The notes under the pieces were generated by a model. The model made no database searches. It was given only the letters and a program-made list of their open reading frames with translations, and was not told the origin of the DNA. A stretch of 29,546 nucleotides of DNA from Candidatus Saccharimonadia bacterium (GTDB lineage Bacteria; Pseudomonadota; Gammaproteobacteria; Xanthomonadales; Ahniellaceae), in assembly GCA_035536495.1 (NCBI GenBank), contig DATLNY010000127.1, positions 1 to 29,546 of the forward strand, read 5' to 3'. Both the position numbers and the translations under genes were made by a program. How positions within the stretch are numbered: the stretch's first letter is position 1; each line of letters begins with the position of its first letter. Positions 9,341 to 17,070 of this stretch are shown piece after piece.

Positions 9341-9877
9341 TCAGACCGCGCGCCGCAACGCCTCGCTGCGCGCGGCCATCGCGACGCCGATCGCGGTCCA
9401 GTCGGCGTCGACACGATCGAGCCGCGGGAACAGGTCGTGCTCCTCCTCGCGCACGTGGTGCGCGACGCAGGCCTCGAGCGCCCCGATCGCGGTGTCGAAC
9501 GCGCCGGCGTCGGTGCCCGTAGCGGTCAGCTCCCCGATCCGCGCGCGGATGTCGTCGTGCTCGTGGCGCGCATGCCGCACCTCGGGGTCGAGCGCCGTCG
9601 CGCGTTCCACCGCGGGATAGAACAGCTCCTCCTCGACCTGCATGTGGATCTCGAGCGCTTGTGCGATCCGCCGCGCGGTGTCGAGCCGAAGCTCGGGATC
9701 GCGGCCCGAGTTCACCGCCCCGAACATCGCCTCGACCGCACGATGCTCGGCGGTCAGGAGCGACACCGCGTGCATCGCCTGGGGATCGAGCGTCGCGACG
9801 GATGCGCCGCTGTGCGGCGTCTGCGCGGCGGGACGGCCGGCATTTCCGAGCTCTTCCGGTTTTTCTGGCAGCGGCAT
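9341..9877 (-). CDS. Hemerythrin-domain (HHE) protein
   Basis: LTAEH, IHMQVEEELFYP, HEH, HHVREEEHDLFP ligand pattern; AAGGAG RBS before ATG 9877. Confidence 0.85.
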   Translation of the reverse strand: MPLPEKPEELGNAGRPAAQTPHSGASVATLDPQAMHAVSLLTAEHRAVEAMFGAVNSGRDPELRLDTARRIAQALEIHMQVEEELFYPAVERATALDPEVRHARHEHDDIRARIGELTATGTDAGAFDTAIGALEACVAHHVREEEHDLFPRLDRVDADWTAIGVAMAARSEALRRAV

Positions 9878-9968
9878 TGCACGACTCCTTGCGCTTGTCG
9901 ACCCGGCGTTGTCGACTCGGTGTGTTCGAACCTGCTTTGCAACGAGCGTGCCGCGGTCGCCGGGCCTG

Positions 9969-10625
9969 CTACTGGTCGAGGAACGGCAGGATCCGGATCG
10001 GGCGTGCCGCAAGCTCGATCTCGCGGTAAAGCGAGAGGTCGGGCTCGCGCATCACGATGACGCGCCCCTCGCGGTCGGGCACGAGCACGCGCTCGCCCGA
10101 GCCGCGCAGTGTCACGCCGCCGGTCTCGTCGTCGGCAAAGCGGAACTCGACGCCGCGCACGCGCGAGCGGGCGCGCTGCTGCACGAGCAGCGCGTCGGCC
10201 TCGGTGAGCGCGGTTTCGACATCGGCGGTCCGCACGATCGCGCCGCTCGGCTGGTGCAGCTCGACGCTGATCGTCAGCGTCAGCGATCCCTCGGGCTGGT
10301 TCGTCTCGACGACGGGATTCTCCGCGAGCAGCGCATCGTCCAGCGGCAGCGCGATCGTGCCGTCGTCGCCGACCGGAACCTCGATGCGTCCGCGCCGCGC
10401 GCGGATCGCGATGCCGATCGCGCGCGGCGCGACGCCGTCGCGCTTGCTCTCGATCCGCTGCACCGCGCGGAGCCTCGGGTACGCCGCGACCTCGCCCGCG
10501 GCGCCGAGCGCGCGGTGGATCACGGCGTATTCGATCTCGGCGGCGCGCACGACGCGCGCGTCGGCGATCGCGAGCGCGAGCGCGAGCGCGAGCAAGAGGC
10601 CTGCACCGATGCGCGGAGTCGACAT
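9969..10625 (-). CDS. Secreted hypothetical protein (DUF2987-like)
   Basis: Signal peptide (GAGLLLALALAIADA) and motif DGTIALPLDDALLAENPVVETNQPEG. The DUF assignment is from recall only. Confidence 0.65.
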   Translation of the reverse strand: MSTPRIGAGLLLALALALAIADARVVRAAEIEYAVIHRALGAAGEVAAYPRLRAVQRIESKRDGVAPRAIGIAIRARRGRIEVPVGDDGTIALPLDDALLAENPVVETNQPEGSLTLTISVELHQPSGAIVRTADVETALTEADALLVQQRARSRVRGVEFRFADDETGGVTLRGSGERVLVPDREGRVIVMREPDLSLYREIELAARPIRILPFLDQ

Positions 10626-10713: not shown

Positions 10714-11739
10714 ATGGCGCGCAGCCGCGGCATCGCAGAACCGTCCGCGCGCCCCGCCGACGAACCGGTCGTGCGCGCGCTGCTGCCGCGCCAGCTTTCG
10801 GACCCGGAGCTCGTGGTGTTCTCGCACGCGGGCGCGAAGCGCAACGTCGAGCGCGGCGAGCTGATCTTCCGCCGCGGCGAGCTCGGGCGCAGCATGTTCG
10901 TGATCGGGGACGGCCAGATCCGCCTCGAGTTCGGCAACGGCCTGTCCGACAAGGTGATCGGCGCGCGCGAATTCTTCGGCGAGCTCGCGCTGTTCATCGG
11001 CAACCACGCGCGCGTCGCGAGCGCGGTCGCGGTCGAGCGCTCGACCCTCTACGTCATCGAGCACGCCGCGTTCGAGCGGCTCCTCGGGCGCGAGCCCGGG
11101 CTGCTCGCGGCGTTCATGGTGCGCTCGTTCGCGTATCTCGTCGCGAGCGAACAGCAGCTGATCGCGAGCCTCAAGCGCCGCAACGAGGACCTGCTCGTCA
11201 CGATCGACTCGCTGCGCCAGACGCAATCGCAGCTGTCGGCGGCCGAGCGGCTCGTGCAGACCGACGAGCTGACCGGCCTGTGCAACCGGCGCGGCCTCTA
11301 CGGCTATCTCGATCGCCTCGCCGAGCAGCGCGTGCCCGGCACGCGGATCGGCCTGCTGCTCGTCGACATCGATCGCTTCAAGCAGATCAACGACAGCCAC
11401 GGCCACCTGATGGGCGACCAGGTGCTCCGCGCGATCTCGCAGGAAGTGCAGCAGGCGTGCTCGGCGTGCGACCTGCCGTGCCGGCTCGGCGGCGACGAGT
11501 TCGCGGTGCTCGCGCAGGTCGGCGACGCGGACGAGCTCGAGCTGCGGGCAGCGCAGCTCGTGCAGGGCGTGCGCTCGCTGCGGTTTCCGGAGCCGTTCCA
11601 GGACCTGCGCGTGACCGTCAGCGTCGGCGGCGCGCTCTGCGCGGAGTCCGGCGACTGGTCGGACTGGTACTCGACCGCCGACGTCTCCCTCTACCAGTCC
11701 AAGGGGACCGGCGGCGACGGATGGCGCGCCGATCGCTGA
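10714..11739 (+). CDS. cNMP-binding domain / GGDEF diguanylate cyclase
   Basis: cNMP domain with phosphate-binding cassette FFGELALF...HARVASA, coiled-coil linker, then TDELTGLCNRR, DIDRFKQINDSHGHLMGD and RLGGDEF. Start at ATG 10714 (GAGG RBS); the upstream part of the 10057 ORF is antisense to the neighbouring gene. Confidence 0.92.
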   Translation: MARSRGIAEPSARPADEPVVRALLPRQLSDPELVVFSHAGAKRNVERGELIFRRGELGRSMFVIGDGQIRLEFGNGLSDKVIGAREFFGELALFIGNHARVASAVAVERSTLYVIEHAAFERLLGREPGLLAAFMVRSFAYLVASEQQLIASLKRRNEDLLVTIDSLRQTQSQLSAAERLVQTDELTGLCNRRGLYGYLDRLAEQRVPGTRIGLLLVDIDRFKQINDSHGHLMGDQVLRAISQEVQQACSACDLPCRLGGDEFAVLAQVGDADELELRAAQLVQGVRSLRFPEPFQDLRVTVSVGGALCAESGDWSDWYSTADVSLYQSKGTGGDGWRADR

Positions 11740-11780
11740 GGATGCGCGGCCGGGCGGCGCGAAGGCGGCGTGCGACCCCG

Positions 11781-11853
11781 AGGCGTCATCCGGCTCGAGC
11801 CGGGATCCCGCGCCTCGAGTTCACTGGACCCCGGCTTGCGCCGGGCTGACGCC
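11781..11853. repeat. Degenerate REP-like doublet, same family as 5071-5159
   Basis: aggcgtcatccggctcgagccgggatcc ... ggaccccggcttgcgccgggctgacgcc. Confidence 0.7.
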
Positions 11854-11937
11854 GTTGTGGGTCAGGGCTGTGGCGCGGCGCGCGACCTTCACCCACAATG
11901 TCCCTGATCCGCTGCGGGCGGGACAAGGCCGCACAAG

Positions 11938-14607
11938 TTGAGCGCTGCGATCGCACCACTGGGTACTCCCGCGGCGCGCCCCGTGCCGGCGCCCGCGCTG
12001 CGCACGCTCGTCGTCTGCGACTTGGTCGACTCGACCGCGCTCGTCGAGCGCATCGGCGACGCGCGCGCGCTCGCGCTGTTCCGCCGGCACGACCGCGCCG
12101 CGCGCGACCTCATCGCGAAGCGCCGCGGCCAGGAGATCGACAAGACCGACGGCTTTCTGCTGCTGTTCGACCGCCCGATCGAGGCGCTCGCGTTCGCGCT
12201 CGAATACCAGCGGCTGTTGCGCGAGCTCAGTCGCGACGAGCAGGTCGCGCTGAAGGCGCGCGTCGGCGTGCACGTCGGCGAAGTCGTCGTGTTCGAGAAC
12301 GCCGACGACGACGTGTCGCGCGGCGCGAAGCGCGTCGAGGTCGAGGGGCTCGTCAAGCCGGTCGCCGCGCGGCTGATGGGGCTTGCCCTGCCCGGCCAGG
12401 TGCTCGTCTCGGGCGTGCTGTTCGGCCTCACCCAGCGCGCCGATCCGGAGCTGCGCGCGGCATTCCCCGGCTTCGTCTGGAAATCGCACGGCCGCTACGC
12501 GTTCAAGGGCGTGCCTGCGCCGATGCAGGTCTACGAGATCGGCGAGCGGCCCGGCGCGCCGATGCTGAAGCCGGTGTCGACCGACAAGGCGTGGCGCGCG
12601 CGCCCGCTGTGGCTGCGCCCGCGTGCGCTGCTCGCCGAGCTCGCGGTCATCGTATTCGCGAGCGCGGTGGTCCTCTACGTCATGACGCGCACCGAGCCCG
12701 CGATCGCGTTCGCCGAGCGCGACTGGGTCGTGCTCGGCCACCTGCGCAACCTCACGAGCGAGCCTGTCTTCGACGGCTCGCTCGAGACGGCGTTGCGGAT
12801 CAGCCTCGACCAGTCACGCCACGTCAACCTCGTCCCGGAGCTCTCGACACGCCGCACGCTCGCGCGCATGCGCCGCCCCGAGGACGCCGTCGTCGACCGC
12901 GAGCTCGGCTCCGAGATCGCGGTGCGCGAAGGCGCCCGCGCGCTGATCCTGCCGACGATCGCCGAGGTCGGCGGGCGGCTGCGCGTCAGCCTCGAGGTCG
13001 TCGATCCCGCGACGCAGGCGACGGTCTATGCCGAGACGGCCGACGGCACAGGCCTCGATTCGGCGCTCGAATCGGTCGACACGGTCGCCGAGCGCCTGCG
13101 CGCGCGGCTCGGCGAGGCGACCGCCTCGATCGAGCGCGATTCGGCGCCGCTGCCGCAGGTGACGACCGCGAACCTCGATGCGTTGCGTGCGTACGCGCTC
13201 GCCGTGCAGCAGCAGGCGCGCAGCCGCTTCGACGAGGCGATCGCGCTCTACCGCCGCGCGCTCGAGCTCGATCCCGAATTCGCGCTCGCCGAAATGGGCC
13301 TCGCGCGGATCCACTTCAATGCGGACCAGTTCGCCGAGTCGCGTGTCTACCTCGATCGCGCGCTCGCCCACCGCGCGCGCCTGACGGCGCGCGATCGTGC
13401 GTATCTCGACGCGTGGCGGCACAACTTCGGCAACCCCGCCGACGCGATACGGCAGTGGCGGCTGATGTCGCAGATGTACCCCGACTATTTCGGCGCGCAC
13501 TACAACTACGCGTACCACGCGAGCCGCGCGGACACGCGCTATGCCGAAGCGCTCGAGGCGGCGGTCCGCGCGACCGACGAGCGCAACTCGTTCATCGCGT
13601 CGGCGTGGTACCTGCGCGGCGCGCTCGCGCTCGTGCTCGATCGCCACGACGACGCGCGTAGCGCGTTCGAGCATGCGATCGCGAACGGTGTCGGCGGCAC
13701 CGTGCTGCAGATCGCGCTCGCCCATGCGGCGCGGCGCGACTGGAGCGCGGCCGACCGACACATGTCGACCGCCGACCCGTCGGGCCTCTCCGCCGTCGAC
13801 GTGTTCGACCGCCGCGGGGAGATCTTGCGCGCGCTCGACCACGGCGACCTCGCCTCGGCCCGCGCTGCTGCGCTTCGAATCGCGCCCGAGGCCGCCGCGA
13901 TCTCGACGCTGCACGGCGACGTGTTCGAGACGAGCGCGGTTTCGCTCGACGCGCTCGCGCCGAGCGATGCCGGATCGGCGCGCCTCGAAGCGCTGCTCGA
14001 TCGCCAGCTCGCCGCGCTCGCGCGCCGCGACGGGCCGGGCAGCAGCGATGCCGCGTTCGCGATCGCCTACCTCGGCTATCTCGCGGCGCGCTCCGACCGG
14101 CCGATGCTCGCGCGCCGCGCGCTCGCGAGCGCCGCGGCGTCGCCCACCGATTTCGCCTACCCGAACGCCGAGCGCATGCTCGCGATCGTGCGCGCGCAGC
14201 TCGCGCTCGCCGATGGCGACGCCGACGCCGCGCACCGACATCTCGCGCCGCAGCTGCGCGGCGAGCCGCTCTACCTCGCGCACCGCGTATCGCTCGAGGC
14301 GTGGGCGGCAGCGGGCGACGCGAAGCGCGCGCTCGAGGAAGCGGCGTGGCTCGTGTCGCACCGTGGACGCGCGTACGGCGAGACGGTCGCGCTCGCGGCG
14401 CCGGTCACGCTCAACGTCGCCGAGGCGACGCTCGCGCACCTGCGTGCGGCGGAGCTCGCGCTCGCGATCGGCGATCGCGAACGCGCATCGAGCGAGCTCG
14501 CCGAGTTCGACCGAGCATGGCCTGCTGCGAAGACCGAGCCCGCGTGGTCGGACCGGCGCGAGTCGCTACGCGCGCGCGTCGCCGGAAGCGGCACCGCGGC
14601 GCGCTGA
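11938..14607 (+). CDS. Class III nucleotidyl cyclase - TM - TPR protein ('putative peptide modification system cyclase'-type)
   Basis: N-terminal CDLVDST, GQEIDKTDGFLLLF, RVGVHVGEV and VAARLM cyclase motifs; one TM helix (ALLAELAVIVFASAVVLYVM); alpha/beta domain (DWVVLGHLRNLTSEPVFD); TPR repeats (FDEAIALYRRALELDPEFALA). TTG start is uncertain. Confidence 0.88.
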   Translation: MSAAIAPLGTPAARPVPAPALRTLVVCDLVDSTALVERIGDARALALFRRHDRAARDLIAKRRGQEIDKTDGFLLLFDRPIEALAFALEYQRLLRELSRDEQVALKARVGVHVGEVVVFENADDDVSRGAKRVEVEGLVKPVAARLMGLALPGQVLVSGVLFGLTQRADPELRAAFPGFVWKSHGRYAFKGVPAPMQVYEIGERPGAPMLKPVSTDKAWRARPLWLRPRALLAELAVIVFASAVVLYVMTRTEPAIAFAERDWVVLGHLRNLTSEPVFDGSLETALRISLDQSRHVNLVPELSTRRTLARMRRPEDAVVDRELGSEIAVREGARALILPTIAEVGGRLRVSLEVVDPATQATVYAETADGTGLDSALESVDTVAERLRARLGEATASIERDSAPLPQVTTANLDALRAYALAVQQQARSRFDEAIALYRRALELDPEFALAEMGLARIHFNADQFAESRVYLDRALAHRARLTARDRAYLDAWRHNFGNPADAIRQWRLMSQMYPDYFGAHYNYAYHASRADTRYAEALEAAVRATDERNSFIASAWYLRGALALVLDRHDDARSAFEHAIANGVGGTVLQIALAHAARRDWSAADRHMSTADPSGLSAVDVFDRRGEILRALDHGDLASARAAALRIAPEAAAISTLHGDVFETSAVSLDALAPSDAGSARLEALLDRQLAALARRDGPGSSDAAFAIAYLGYLAARSDRPMLARRALASAAASPTDFAYPNAERMLAIVRAQLALADGDADAAHRHLAPQLRGEPLYLAHRVSLEAWAAAGDAKRALEEAAWLVSHRGRAYGETVALAAPVTLNVAEATLAHLRAAELALAIGDRERASSELAEFDRAWPAAKTEPAWSDRRESLRARVAGSGTAAR

Positions 14608-14673
14608 TCCGGTCATCATCGATCCGGTGATCGTCGACGGAGCGCGGCGATCGGCGTCTCCTCTCGCGGCGGC

Positions 14674-15867
14674 TCAACGATCGCGGGCGTCCGGCTCCAC
14701 CGGCCACGCGCGCGCGAGCGGATCGAATTCCGCGGTCGTCATCGCGTCGGCGCGCCTTCCGAAGCCGCAGACGGCGATGACGCCCTGCTCGAGCGGATCG
14801 AGCCCGAATGCAGCCTCGAGCTCGACTTCGTTGATCGCCGCCGTCACGAACGCGCCGATCCCGCGCTCGGCGCACGCGAGGTAAAGCGTCTGCACGATGC
14901 AACCCGCTTCGAGCAGGATCACGCGGTACGCCTTCGCGTGGTTGCGGTACTTCCAGAAGCAGCGTTCGAACCGCGCGGCGAGCACGACGAGCACGTCGGC
15001 ATCGGCCAGGAACGCCTGTCCAGCGACCGCGGTCGTTGCGAGCGCGTCGATCGGCGCCGAGCCCGCTTCGACCGGCTCCAGCGCGTGCGCGACCGGGTGA
15101 TAGTGGTACAGCCCGGCCGCGAGTCCTTCGATACGCCGCACGATCAGATACGCCTCGACCGGATGCAGCCCACCGCCCGAGGGCGTGTTCTTCTTGAGGA
15201 ACGCATGCCCGGGCTCGATCTCGACCGATGCGTGCGCGCGCAGCGTCCGATCGACGACGCGCGCGAAGTCGGCGGCCGAGAGCGCACCGCGGGTGGCGAA
15301 ATTCCGGCAGGTCGCGCGCGCGTGCAGCGTCGCGTCGAGCGCGTCGCGCTCGGGCTCGGCGAGCGCGATGCGATCCGCCGCGACGCCGCGCTCGAGCACG
15401 GCGACGGGCGGCGGTCCGAAGCGCTCGATCAGCTCGGCGAGCGATCGGGGCTGCGCGGCGAGATCGGCAGGCGTCCCGACGCCGCGCCAGCGCGAATACG
15501 CGTGCGCGACCGCCGAGAGCGGGCGCCAGTGCTGCGCGCGCTGGCGCGCGTCGAGGTCCGCAACGGCGGGATCGACGAACGATTCGCCCTCGCGGGCGAC
15601 GACGAGCCCGCACGCGACGAGCCGGTCGAGCGCCGCGCGCTCGTCCGCGTCGAATCGCGAAGCCGGCGACCACGCGTGCACTGGCAATCGCCCGAGCCGC
15701 ACGACGTCGGACTCGTCGAGCTCGTGTTCGCCGCCGAGATGCGGCGCGTACGCGACCCATGTGCGCTCGAACTCGACACCATCCCCGCCGGCGAGCAGCG
15801 CCTCGAGCGCGAAGCGCGGACGCTCGCGGGGTTCGACGAAGAGGCCCGCGCAGCGCCGGTAGTCCAT
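14674..15867 (-). CDS. SagB-like nitroreductase-fold putative peptide maturation dehydrogenase
   Basis: C-terminal SagB motifs RATCRNF, KNTPSGGGLHPVEAY, GLYHYHPVAHALE, FWKYRNHAKAYRVILLEAG; N-terminal extension ending LDRLVACGLVV, resembling a winged-helix RiPP recognition element. Confidence 0.9.
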   Translation of the reverse strand: MDYRRCAGLFVEPRERPRFALEALLAGGDGVEFERTWVAYAPHLGGEHELDESDVVRLGRLPVHAWSPASRFDADERAALDRLVACGLVVAREGESFVDPAVADLDARQRAQHWRPLSAVAHAYSRWRGVGTPADLAAQPRSLAELIERFGPPPVAVLERGVAADRIALAEPERDALDATLHARATCRNFATRGALSAADFARVVDRTLRAHASVEIEPGHAFLKKNTPSGGGLHPVEAYLIVRRIEGLAAGLYHYHPVAHALEPVEAGSAPIDALATTAVAGQAFLADADVLVVLAARFERCFWKYRNHAKAYRVILLEAGCIVQTLYLACAERGIGAFVTAAINEVELEAAFGLDPLEQGVIAVCGFGRRADAMTTAEFDPLARAWPVEPDARDR

Positions 15868-15944
15868 CGGCCGAGGCTATGCATTGTCGCGCCGTTCGGC
15901 AAATCGCTTAGACTTGAGCCCCGGCACAGGGAAGGGAGACCGCG

Positions 15945-16253
15945 ATGGCAACCACGCCGTACCACGTCGAACCGGAAGTCGTCGACAAGCTGCTGCACGA
16001 GCTGTCGACCAACGAAGCGTTCCGCAAGGAGTTCCTCGTCGATTATTTCGGCGCGCTCAAGCGCCTCGGCCACAAGCCGCCGGCCGATCGCCTCGACGGC
16101 CCGCTCTGCAAGGACCCGGATCAGCCGCTAGCGCCGATGAGCGAGATCGCCGCCGCGCGCGAGATGCTGCGCACCGAGTACTCGGCGGGGCTCCAGTTCC
16201 AGCAGAACCTGCTCGTGTCGCCGGTGGGCCGCAAGCGCGACAGCGCGTTCTGA
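15945..16253 (+). CDS. NHLP-related putative RiPP precursor peptide (102 aa)
   Basis: VVDKLLHELSTNEAFRKEFLVDYFGALKRLG matches the nitrile-hydratase-leader pattern (L..L..D..FR..F..DP..AL..G), then LAPMSEIAAAREML. Strong GGAGA RBS and an upstream TAGACT -10; divergent from the dehydrogenase. Confidence 0.85.
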   Translation: MATTPYHVEPEVVDKLLHELSTNEAFRKEFLVDYFGALKRLGHKPPADRLDGPLCKDPDQPLAPMSEIAAAREMLRTEYSAGLQFQQNLLVSPVGRKRDSAF

Positions 16254-16332
16254 CATCGCGCCCCGCTGCGGCGGCGCTCCCGTTCCAACAGGGGCGTGCT
16301 CGAGTCGCGGGTGTGGACTGGCGTGATCTCTG

Positions 16333-16362
16333 CCGTCATTCCCGCGCACGCGGGAATGACGG
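16333..16362. repeat. REP-type hairpin, possibly a terminator between convergent genes
   Basis: ccgtcattcccgc-gcac-gcgggaatgacgg, perfect 13-bp stem, GTCAT(T/C)CCCG family. Confidence 0.75.
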
Positions 16363-16407
16363 GTCGGGGGGTGCAAGCGCCAGGTGACGCGAGCCTGTTC
16401 TGCCCCG

Positions 16408-16662
16408 CTACGCCGGCTTCAGCGCGAACGCCGCCTCGGCGAGCGCCGACGCGTCGCCGAGGAGGAGCTCGCGCACGAAGTCGGCCGCCTCGGCGTGTCG
16501 ATCGTCGGCGACGTGGACTTCGACGAGGCCGAACACCGGCAACTCGCCGATGCCGCCGGCGAGAAAGTCGCCGAACACGAACGCCGGGATCCCGTGGTGC
16601 TCGAGCGCGCCCCTGACGAGGTGCGCGTCGATCGAGTTCTCGGCCTGGTAGACACGGCGCAT
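16408..16662 (-). CDS. DUF2007-like putative signal-transducing small protein
   Basis: MRRVYQAENSIDAHLVRGALEHHGIPAFV...GELP...VEVHV; forms the true 3' end of the long 16408..18618 shadow ORF. Confidence 0.82.
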   Translation of the reverse strand: MRRVYQAENSIDAHLVRGALEHHGIPAFVFGDFLAGGIGELPVFGLVEVHVADDRHAEAADFVRELLLGDASALAEAAFALKPA

Positions 16663-16761
16663 GCGCGGGGACGCGATCGGACGCCTGCGTGGCGGTAAAG
16701 GCCGGGTGGAGCCGTGACCTCCATCACACAACGCGCCGCGCCCCGCTCGCACACTGCGGCC

Positions 16762-17070
16762 ATGGGGCGCCCACAGATGATCTCGATCGACACCGACGGC
16801 TTTGATGAAGGACGCATCGCGTCCTGCCTCGAGGCGAACATGATGCGTCTGATGCGCGGCCGGCGGCCGTGGGGCACGATCTGCCCGACCGAGGCCGCGC
16901 GCTGGGCCGGGGCCGAGCTCGGGCTCGATTGGCGCGCGCTGCTGCAGCCGGCGCGCGAGCTCGCCGTGGAGCTCGCCGAGCGCGGTGTCATCGAGATGCT
17001 GCAGCGTGGCCACACGGTCGATGCGCGCCACGTGCAAGGGCCGGTGCGCGTTCGCCTCAGGACCCGCTGA
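16762..17070 (+). CDS. DUF3253-like winged-helix small protein
   Basis: TICPTEAAR...DWRALLQPARELA..L...G.IEMLQRG..VD...GPVRVRL. Start is uncertain (16714, 16762 or 16777). Confidence 0.78.
   Translation: MGRPQMISIDTDGFDEGRIASCLEANMMRLMRGRRPWGTICPTEAARWAGAELGLDWRALLQPARELAVELAERGVIEMLQRGHTVDARHVQGPVRVRLRTR

What the first reader, a model, noticed from the sequence alone, without database searches (positions are those of the whole stretch)
10714..16253. Candidate RiPP-gated second-messenger cascade: modified peptide -> TPR/cyclase receptor -> cNMP -> cNMP-GGDEF -> c-di-GMP
Seen: four adjacent genes encode a cNMP-binding diguanylate cyclase, a single-pass class III cyclase with an extracytoplasmic TPR region, a SagB-like dehydrogenase and an NHLP-like precursor. 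The GGDEF and cyclase genes are co-oriented. Established: TPRs bind peptides; class III cyclases make cNMPs; GE..R cassettes bind cNMP. From memory (verify): the cyclase/dehydrogenase/precursor trio is catalogued as an uncharacterised 'putative peptide modification system' (TIGR04509-04511), and a cyclase-TPR plus cNMP-GGDEF pair was separately reported as a cGMP pathway in Xanthomonas campestris. Inference: these are one system, in which a post-translationally modified peptide is the ligand (quorum-like or envelope signal) rather than an antibiotic. I know of no identified ligand or peptide product.
Basis: partly seen in the sequence, partly recalled or inferred. Interest (0 to 1): 0.85.

Follow-up and report, generated by a model that had tools for sequence, protein, structure and literature searches.

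The report
Peptide cassette tied to cGMP cyclase
A membrane guanylate cyclase and its cGMP-activated c-di-GMP synthase, already known from Xanthomonas, sit in a conserved four-gene cluster with a small peptide gene and a peptide dehydrogenase, and the peptide co-varies with the cyclase's outer sensor domain, which makes it a testable candidate for the pathway's unknown input signal.

Summary
All four genes are present and pass curated thresholds: cNMP-GGDEF (10714-11739 +), TIGR04510 cyclase-TM-TPR (11938-14607 +), TIGR04511 SagB-like dehydrogenase (14674-15867, minus strand) and TIGR04509 peptide (15945-16253 +). The first two match the Xanthomonas campestris XC_0249/XC_0250 cGMP to c-di-GMP pair. 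In about 119 loci, nearly all Xanthomonadales/Lysobacterales, the usual layout is GGDEF> cyclase> <peptide dehydrogenase>.

Evidence for one system:
- Cyclase, peptide and dehydrogenase are lost as a block and duplicated as cyclase-peptide modules.
- Paralogous cyclases in one genome keep 71-98% identical catalytic domains, except one pair at 58%. Their periplasmic TPR regions are only 26-38% identical and their peptides 20-41%.
- Peptide divergence tracks TPR divergence best.

The claim that the peptide is the ligand remains inference:
- The co-fold was uninformative.
- No exporter or protease is linked to the cluster.
- Peptide-dehydrogenase pairs occur without a cyclase in actinomycetes.
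- No YcaO partner exists, so the chemistry is unknown.

I found no paper that connects the cGMP pathway with the peptide cassette. This scan noted the same cassette earlier on another genome (e1-3937607). Verdict: real, partly supported, a new variant of known kinds, and directly testable.

The parts
10714..11739 (+). cGMP-receptor diguanylate cyclase (cNMP-binding + GGDEF), counterpart of XC_0249
   Evidence: Pfam PF00027 and PF00990. 40-71% identical full-length counterparts lie directly upstream of the cyclase in 34 genomes. The cNMP domain matches PDB 5h5o at E 1e-24, and Xanthomonas loci encode peptides identical to stretches of that chain. FFGE, H and E of the cGMP site are kept; the N of the N-E pair is S here.
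11938..14607 (+). Single-pass class III (guanylate) cyclase with periplasmic alpha/beta + TPR sensor, counterpart of XC_0250. Start is TTG 11938 or GTG 11983.
   Evidence: TIGR04510, 850 bits. Same length and domain plan as XC_0250, which is 886 aa with CYC at 32-191 and TPRs from 413. TM helix at about 232-252. AF2 model of residues 255-889 has pLDDT 89.
14674..15867 (-). SagB-like FMN dehydrogenase (TIGR04511) with the catalytic Lys-Tyr pair (K306-Y307)
   Evidence: TIGR04511, 487 bits, and PF00881. K306 and Y307 are invariant in 10 family members and align with McbC K201-Y202.
15868..15944 (.). 77-bp divergent promoter region between the dehydrogenase and peptide genes, with a TAGACT -10-like hexamer at 15910-15915 and RBS GGGAGA
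   Evidence: Sequence read directly. GCAATCGCTAGA-like strings recur upstream of the peptide gene in other loci. The promoter scan found no canonical sigma-70 site.
15945..16253 (+). NHLP-related peptide (TIGR04509), 102 aa: conserved N-terminal two thirds, variable C-terminal ~35 residues, one Cys (C55)
   Evidence: TIGR04509, 46.5 bits. In an alignment of 148 distinct homologues, all columns with 60% or more conservation lie before residue 66.

Best explanation
The four genes form one signalling module. Step A rests on homology to experiments: the membrane cyclase (XC_0250 type) makes cGMP in the cytoplasm, and cGMP binds the cNMP domain of the adjacent GGDEF protein (XC_0249 type) and raises c-di-GMP synthesis. 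Step B rests on comparative genomics done here: the small NHLP-related peptide and the SagB-like dehydrogenase belong functionally to the cyclase, and specifically to its periplasmic TPR sensor region. Step C is inference: the dehydrogenase uses its intact Lys-Tyr/FMN site to oxidise the peptide, probably by an alpha,beta-dehydrogenation that does not depend on YcaO. It would recognise the peptide through the conserved N-terminal two thirds. The product, or a fragment carrying the variable C-terminal tail, would reach the periplasm by an unlinked route and bind the cognate TPR solenoid, setting cyclase activity. That would make a peptide -> cGMP -> c-di-GMP cascade with pherotype-like specificity. 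In this window the peptide-dehydrogenase pair is inverted as a unit but is otherwise intact.
For: Homology: family scores; XC_0250/XC_0249 architecture and biochemistry; PDB 5h5o match and Xanthomonas loci with the same four genes. Linkage: order sample of 201 genomes with TIGR04510 in 46, TIGR04511 in 42 (all within the 46) and the GGDEF counterpart in 42 of the 46. The dominant layout GG> CYC> PRE< DH> occurs in 56 of 119 loci, plus variants. All 10 antisense peptides tested pass the TIGR04509 cut-off. Block behaviour: G171 and G164 keep the GGDEF and identical flanks but lack cyclase, peptide and dehydrogenase. Arrays repeat CYC-PRE(-DH) behind a single GGDEF, some with two cyclases and two peptides but one dehydrogenase. 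Co-diversification: in 14 within-genome paralogue pairs the mean identity is 82% for the cyclase domain, 70% for the juxtamembrane region, 29% for the TPR region and 29% for the peptide. Over all pairs, peptide identity correlates with TPR identity at r 0.65; the partial correlation is 0.50 given the other cyclase parts (permutation p 0.001) and 0.38 when both dehydrogenase halves are also controlled. Enzyme competence: the K-Y pair is invariant and aligns with McbC K201-Y202. Relatives of the dehydrogenase fused to or next to TPR proteins exist elsewhere.
Against: There is no direct evidence of binding: the co-fold of full-length cyclase with the peptide gave ipSAE 0.00, which is uninformative. 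The peptide has no signal peptide and no double-glycine motif. No exporter or protease is conserved at the locus. C39 peptidase-ABC exporters were not found in 22 of 46 cyclase genomes, closed genomes included. Peptide-dehydrogenase pairs stand alone in Kitasatospora and Streptomyces, and cyclases without peptide or dehydrogenase occur in G060 and G069. The TPR-encoding 3' half of the cyclase gene lies next to the peptide gene, so exchange of one DNA cassette by recombination, or shared ancestry, could produce the co-variation without contact between the two products. The permutation test does not control for relatedness. The fold search gave only generic TPR solenoids. Cyclase product specificity rests on one paper and was not tested here.
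Confidence: 0.5

Rival explanations
1. The peptide and dehydrogenase act in the cytoplasm. The roughly 100-aa NHLP-like protein, oxidised or not, would regulate the cyclase's catalytic domain or the GGDEF protein, for example as a redox-responsive partner. The periplasmic TPR region would sense an unrelated envelope cue.
For: No signal peptide, cleavage motif, exporter or protease. The TIGR04509 model spans nearly the whole protein, which is unlike a leader plus hypervariable core. The peptide also shows a weaker partial correlation with the cyclase domain, 0.23-0.27.
Against: The peptide co-varies most with the TPR region, not with the cytoplasmic domain. Paralogous cyclases with 93-98% identical catalytic domains carry peptides only 28-41% identical. 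The co-fold showed no contact with the cyclase domain either, though that run is uninformative.
Confidence: 0.15
2. The peptide-dehydrogenase pair makes a secreted product, such as a bacteriocin or other RiPP, whose production or immunity is an output of, or merely co-regulated with, the cGMP pathway. The cyclase would not bind it.
For: The pair exists as a self-contained unit in actinomycetes. Relatives of the dehydrogenase lie in classical RiPP clusters with a PatG-like protease and methyl- or sulfotransferases. The peptide gene has its own divergent promoter region.
Against: An output relation does not predict one peptide gene per cyclase in arrays with a shared dehydrogenase, nor the specific TPR-peptide co-divergence. 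No immunity or export genes are linked to the cluster.
Confidence: 0.15
3. The TPR-cyclase is a maturation or scaffold component of the peptide system, as the NCBIfam name 'peptide modification system cyclase' implies. Its TPR region would hold the peptide for processing or export, and cGMP would be a side report of pathway load.
For: TIGR04510 is named as part of the modification system. TPR-dehydrogenase fusions and TPR-sulfotransferase neighbours occur in related systems. The co-variation results fit any direct TPR-peptide contact.
Against: The dehydrogenase is cytoplasmic while the TPR region is predicted to be periplasmic. Actinomycete pairs need no such protein. XC_0250 mutants have signalling phenotypes that act through XC_0249.
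Confidence: 0.1
4. There is no direct functional tie. The cassette is an old genomic neighbourhood inherited vertically in Xanthomonadales, and the co-variation reflects linked recombination only.
For: The cassette is almost confined to one order. The flanks are housekeeping genes in conserved synteny. The adjacency confound is real.
Against: The block is lost, duplicated and inverted as a unit while staying together across at least 25 genera. The GGDEF can move 92-230 kb away while cyclase, peptide and dehydrogenase stay together.
Confidence: 0.1

Closest known systems
XC_0250 / XC_0249 cGMP -> c-di-GMP pathway of Xanthomonas campestris (An et al. 2013, EMBO J, PMC3770947)
   Same: Same two proteins: an ~886-889-aa class III cyclase with TPRs, and the adjacent co-oriented cNMP-GGDEF. 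Xanthomonas loci in the same family carry the same four-gene cluster.
   Different: The paper names no input signal, no membrane topology and no neighbouring peptide or dehydrogenase genes; the words XC_0251, XC_0252, transmembrane and operon do not occur in it. Here the N of the N145-E146 guanine-binding pair is Ser.
NCBIfam TIGR04509 / TIGR04510 / TIGR04511 'putative peptide modification system'
   Same: All three models are matched above their cut-offs by adjacent genes.
   Different: The catalogue entry is uncharacterised and I found it linked to cGMP signalling in no paper. This window has a unique gene order, with the dehydrogenase-peptide pair inverted.
Azoline oxidases of azole RiPPs and NRPS products (SagB, McbC, CyaGox/ThcOx, BmdC)
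   Same: Nitroreductase fold, FMN site and the catalytic Lys-Tyr pair.
   Different: There is no YcaO or E1-like cyclodehydratase at the locus, and none was found in 44 of 46 cyclase genomes. The peptide has no Cys/Ser/Thr-rich core. An extra ~180-aa N-terminal region is present.
NHLP / Nif11 leader-peptide RiPPs with C39 peptidase-ABC exporters
   Same: The N-terminal helices resemble the nitrile hydratase alpha / NHLP leader, with weak hits to TIGR03793 and to nitrile hydratase chains.
   Different: Scores are below the TIGR03793 cut-off, there is no Gly-Gly site and no linked C39 exporter.
Peptide pheromone-receptor cassettes (agrD/agrC, comC/comD) and animal peptide-gated receptor guanylate cyclases (from general knowledge)
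   Same: The ligand gene lies next to the receptor gene. The sensor half of the receptor and the peptide diverge together while the output domain stays conserved, and there are several cassettes per genome.
   Different: The output is cGMP rather than phosphorylation, the sensor is a periplasmic TPR solenoid, no dedicated processing or export gene is present, and binding is unproven.

Membership tests
XC_0250/XC_0249-type cGMP -> c-di-GMP pair | Class III cyclase domain followed by a TPR region, ~886 aa | tested here: met
   TIGR04510 at 850 bits; 889 aa; CYC at about 20-200; TPR Pfam hits from residue 414
XC_0250/XC_0249-type cGMP -> c-di-GMP pair | Adjacent, co-oriented cNMP-binding + GGDEF protein with an intact GGDEF motif | tested here: met
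   PF00027 and PF00990; the motif GGDEF is present; the gene ends 198 bp before the cyclase start
XC_0250/XC_0249-type cGMP -> c-di-GMP pair | cGMP-contact residues F73, E90, H98, N145, E146 of XC_0249 | tested here: inconclusive
   In the alignment to PDB 5h5o and to Xanthomonas homologues, FFGE, H and the E of the pair are kept, but N is Ser
XC_0250/XC_0249-type cGMP -> c-di-GMP pair | Guanylate cyclase activity and cGMP-stimulated c-di-GMP synthesis | not testable with these tools
   Biochemistry is known only for the Xanthomonas proteins
TIGR04509-04511 cassette | All three HMMs above their curated cut-offs in neighbouring genes | tested here: met
   46.5/34, 850/400 and 487/240 bits
Azole (TOMM/LAP) RiPP system | SagB-type dehydrogenase with the catalytic Lys-Tyr pair | tested here: met
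   K306-Y307 are invariant and align with McbC K201-Y202
Azole (TOMM/LAP) RiPP system | YcaO cyclodehydratase partner | tested here: not met
   No YcaO in the window or in G000. PF02624 was found in only 2 of 46 cyclase genomes, and far from the locus
Azole (TOMM/LAP) RiPP system | Cys/Ser/Thr-rich core peptide | tested here: not met
   One Cys and no heterocyclisable run; the tails are variable and often hydrophobic or charged
NHLP leader RiPP with C39 export | TIGR03793 NHLP leader above its cut-off and a Gly-Gly cleavage site | tested here: not met
   Homologues reach at most 17.7 bits against a cut-off of 50.9, and no GG motif is present
NHLP leader RiPP with C39 export | Linked C39 peptidase-ABC transporter | tested here: not met
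   None among the neighbours. PF03412 was not found in 22 of 46 cyclase genomes
Peptide pheromone-receptor cassette (works-like comparison) | Peptide gene paired one-to-one with the receptor gene, and co-divergence of peptide and sensor domain | tested here: met
   114 of 118 cyclase genes are followed by a peptide gene; paralogue and all-pairs analyses
Peptide pheromone-receptor cassette (works-like comparison) | Physical binding of the peptide to the sensor domain | tested here: inconclusive
   Co-fold ipSAE 0.00, which the tool states is no evidence either way

The most novel reading that the evidence does not exclude
A ribosomal peptide, oxidised by a YcaO-independent SagB-like enzyme, is released and sensed by the periplasmic TPR solenoid of a receptor guanylate cyclase. 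Cognate peptide-sensor pairs would diversify like pherotypes. This would be the first bacterial peptide-gated receptor guanylate cyclase, a RiPP-type autoinducer system in Gram-negative Xanthomonadales, and the missing input of the XC_0250 cGMP pathway.
Probability: 0.35. Interest if true: 0.9.

Novelty: new variant of a known kind. Interest (0 to 1): 0.72.

Why it matters
The XC_0250/XC_0249 pathway controls biofilm formation and virulence in a crop pathogen, and homologues exist in Stenotrophomonas maltophilia, yet its input signal has never been identified. This analysis names a specific candidate encoded next door, and it can be tested with knock-outs, mass spectrometry and binding assays. 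If the candidate holds, it adds peptide signalling through cGMP to bacterial cell biology. It would also assign a role to an orphan RiPP-like family and point to a new SagB-type chemistry that needs no cyclodehydratase. If it fails, the tight linkage and the sensor-peptide co-divergence still need an explanation.

Tried and rejected
- Co-folding the full-length cyclase (889 aa) with the peptide, using family alignments, scored 0.00. The controls were not run, so the result counts neither way.
- A fold search of the periplasmic model against the PDB returned only generic TPR solenoids such as Ctr9, Ski3 and OGT. No RNPP-type peptide receptor came up.
- A word-based homologue search with the peptide found only two near-identical proteins. 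The peptide family had to be recovered by iterative HMM search on fetched loci.
- Context look-ups for distant dehydrogenase relatives mostly hit contigs too short to be useful.
- A CRP/Clp-like site in the peptide-dehydrogenase intergenic regions was present in only 12 of 119, so I dropped the idea.
- The promoter and terminator scan of 14400-16800 found nothing.
- No RNA-seq run holds the Xanthomonas-type locus, so transcription of the peptide gene could not be shown and read laying was not used.
- C39 export and YcaO-dependent azole chemistry were both considered and rejected as general features of the system.
- I found no retraction notice for An et al. 2013 in the library.
Full report
**Observation.** The window has 70-72% G+C, so it carries many spurious ORFs, but profile searches pick out four real genes.
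- 10714-11739 (+) has a cNMP-binding domain and a GGDEF domain. The GGDEF motif is intact.
- 11938-14607 (+) scores 850 bits on TIGR04510, cut-off 400. It has an N-terminal class III cyclase domain, one hydrophobic helix at about 232-252 flanked by basic residues on the N-terminal side, and a ~635-aa C-terminal region with TPRs.
- 14674-15867 on the minus strand scores 487 bits on TIGR04511, cut-off 240.
- 15945-16253 (+) scores 46.5 bits on TIGR04509, cut-off 34, and has a good ribosome-binding site.

The dehydrogenase is convergent with the cyclase and divergent from the peptide gene. The flanking genes are ordinary: hemerythrin-like, phosphoribosyltransferase, LysR/AhpC, DUF2007, DUF3253 and glnS.

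**Link to the known pathway.** An et al. 2013 (PMC3770947) described XC_0250 as an 886-aa protein with a cyclase domain at 32-191 and TPRs from 413. It is needed for cGMP synthesis and is active in vitro. The adjacent XC_0249 is a cNMP-GGDEF protein that binds cGMP and is stimulated by it. The window's pair has the same architecture. Its cNMP domain matches PDB 5h5o at E 1e-24. Loci of Xanthomonas hortorum, X. prunicola and Xanthomonas sp. Leaf131 encode peptides identical to parts of that chain, inside the same four-gene cluster. The paper never mentions a neighbouring peptide, a dehydrogenase or a membrane segment. No paper in the library mentions the three TIGR families or combines NHLP or SagB with this cyclase.

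**Distribution and synteny.** I sampled 201 genomes of the window's order.
- TIGR04510 passes its cut-off in 46 genomes.
- TIGR04511 passes in 42, all of them among the 46.
- A full-length XC_0249 counterpart is present in 45 genomes, 42 of them among the 46.
- The GGDEF gene sits directly upstream of the cyclase in 34 genomes. In G052 and G156 it lies 230 kb and 92 kb away, and in six genomes it is on another contig.

In a class-wide sample of 401 genomes the dehydrogenase passed its cut-off only in the same order. A scan of one genome per prokaryotic species found more than 537 relatives of the dehydrogenase. The best 80 are almost all Lysobacter, Stenotrophomonas, Xanthomonas, Pseudoxanthomonas, Dokdonella, Tahibacter, Rudaea, Rhodanobacteraceae and relatives.

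**Gene order.** An iterative HMM search on the fetched loci showed that the peptide gene normally lies between the cyclase and the dehydrogenase, on the opposite strand. Ten of ten such ORFs pass the TIGR04509 cut-off. Over 119 loci the dominant layout is GG> CYC> PRE< DH>, seen 56 times. Variants carry 2-5 peptide genes or repeated CYC-PRE(-DH) modules. The window is the only locus with GG> CYC> DH< PRE>, an inversion of the divergent peptide-dehydrogenase pair.

**Evidence that cyclase, peptide and dehydrogenase work together.**
- Block loss. G171 and G164 keep the GGDEF gene and the same flanks (LysR, malate synthase and isocitrate lyase on one side; a ComM-like protein and PII on the other) but lack all three genes.
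- Modular duplication. Many genomes carry two or three CYC-PRE(-DH) modules behind a single GGDEF. Several have two cyclases and two peptides but one dehydrogenase. 114 of 118 cyclase genes are followed by a peptide gene.
- Co-divergence within genomes. In 14 paralogue pairs the cyclase domains are 58-98% identical (mean 82%) and the transmembrane/juxtamembrane part averages 70%. The TPR region is only 26-38% identical and the paired peptides 20-41%.
- Co-divergence across loci. Over all pairs of 113 modules, peptide identity correlates best with TPR identity (r 0.65). The partial correlation is 0.50 after removing the cyclase and juxtamembrane identities (permutation p 0.001). It is 0.38 after also removing both halves of the dehydrogenase, against 0.23 for the cyclase domain and 0.19 for the dehydrogenase N-terminal half.
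- Rate. The TPR region and the peptide are the two fastest-evolving parts, with a mean pairwise identity of 29% each.

This is the pattern seen in receptor-pheromone cassettes. It also has a trivial alternative: the TPR-coding 3' half of the cyclase gene physically adjoins the peptide gene, so recombination of one DNA cassette, or shared descent, would give the same signal. The permutation test does not correct for relatedness.

**The peptide and the enzyme.** Among 148 distinct peptides (median 96 aa), every column with 60% or more conservation lies in the first two thirds. The consensus is roughly LLxxLxxDDxFRxxFxxDPxxAL...G, a Cys in 64%, then LAxK. The last ~35 residues vary and range from hydrophobic tails such as GMGWFLLK to charged ones. 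There is no signal peptide and no Gly-Gly site. The window's copy departs from consensus at several positions and scores low, but it is intact.

The dehydrogenase's nearest solved relatives are azoline oxidases: CyaGox, a SagB-type protein, BmdC and McbC. Its invariant K306-Y307 aligns with the catalytic K201-Y202 of McbC. No YcaO was found in 44 of the 46 cyclase genomes. So the enzyme is probably active, but on something other than a YcaO-made azoline.

**Evidence against, or missing for, the ligand model.**
- The co-fold of the cyclase with the peptide scored 0.00 and is explicitly uninformative.
- The periplasmic region folds confidently (pLDDT 89, pTM 0.87) into a small alpha/beta domain plus a long TPR solenoid, but it resembles only generic TPR scaffolds.
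- No transporter or protease is conserved near the cluster. An S9 peptidase sits next to the dehydrogenase in two loci only.
- C39 exporters were not found in 22 of 46 cyclase genomes, closed genomes included.
- Outside the order, Kitasatospora and Streptomyces bambusae carry the divergent peptide-dehydrogenase pair at 47-48% identity with no cyclase or GGDEF nearby. A Pseudoduganella genome has the dehydrogenase alone.
- A metagenomic relative is fused to an AraC domain beside a PatG-like protease and a TPR-sulfotransferase.
- G060 and G069 have the cyclase without peptide or dehydrogenase.

So the peptide-dehydrogenase pair can work on its own, and its coupling to the cyclase is a Xanthomonadales innovation.

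**Verdict.** The claim that the four genes form one system is well supported by comparative genomics. The step from peptide to TPR receptor is the best available reading, at about 0.5 for a direct peptide-sensor relation and about 0.35 for the full exported-autoinducer version, but it rests on inference. The components belong to known families, while their combination is not described in the literature I could search. I class it as a new variant of known kinds. This scan met the same cassette before on another genome (e1-3937607), and my tests agree with that note.

Noticed in passing
L038:10240-12357 (+) = G143:C1:419530-421332: A 'sensor-only' paralogue directly after the dehydrogenase. It matches TIGR04510 positions 206-810 (TM, juxtamembrane and TPR regions) but lacks the cyclase domain. 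It could be a decoy or co-receptor.
   Followed up: no
window 15896-15917; also L054 and L077 intergenic regions: A GCAA(A)TCGCT(T)AGACT-like string with a TAGACT -10-like hexamer recurs about 30 nt upstream of the peptide start in several loci. In L054 it is part of a palindrome. It may be a shared promoter or operator.
   Followed up: partly
window 14417-14437 and 16422-16442: A 21-nt inverted repeat (90% complementary) brackets the segment holding the inverted dehydrogenase-peptide pair. It could mark the inversion, or it could be chance in G+C-rich DNA.
   Followed up: no
L011:3298-5451 (+) and L012:10191-12359 (-): An S9 prolyl-oligopeptidase-family gene lies next to the dehydrogenase in two Xanthomonadaceae loci only. 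It is a possible processing protease in that lineage.
   Followed up: no
L053 (metagenome contig, 9.2 kb): A distant relative of the dehydrogenase is fused to an AraC HTH domain. It sits beside a TPR-sulfotransferase, an 89-aa ORF, a PatG-like S8 protease and a methyltransferase, which looks like a classical RiPP cluster.
   Followed up: no
protein atlas hit (structure row 3): A cluster of 84 proteins of ~875 aa, mostly Acidobacteriota, fuses this nitroreductase fold to TPR repeats. This hints at a recurrent functional tie between the dehydrogenase and TPR domains.
   Followed up: no
L061 (Kitasatospora sp.) and L070 (Streptomyces bambusae): The peptide-dehydrogenase pair is 47-48% identical to the window's enzyme, as close as many Xanthomonadales copies. 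That suggests transfer between phyla.
   Followed up: partly
window 16408-16737 (-), 16699-17070 (+), 9341-10051 (-): Small DUF2007 (PII-like 'signal transducing') and DUF3253 genes follow the peptide gene, and a hemerythrin-domain gene precedes the GGDEF gene. DUF3253 and glnS are also next to the cluster in G172 (L032). DUF2007 was not seen elsewhere.
   Followed up: partly
L068, L074 and many other loci (3' ends of the cyclase and peptide genes): The convergent cyclase and peptide reading frames (read stop to stop) end within a few bases of each other or overlap. Transcription of the peptide gene may therefore run antisense into the TPR-coding part of the cyclase gene.
   Followed up: no
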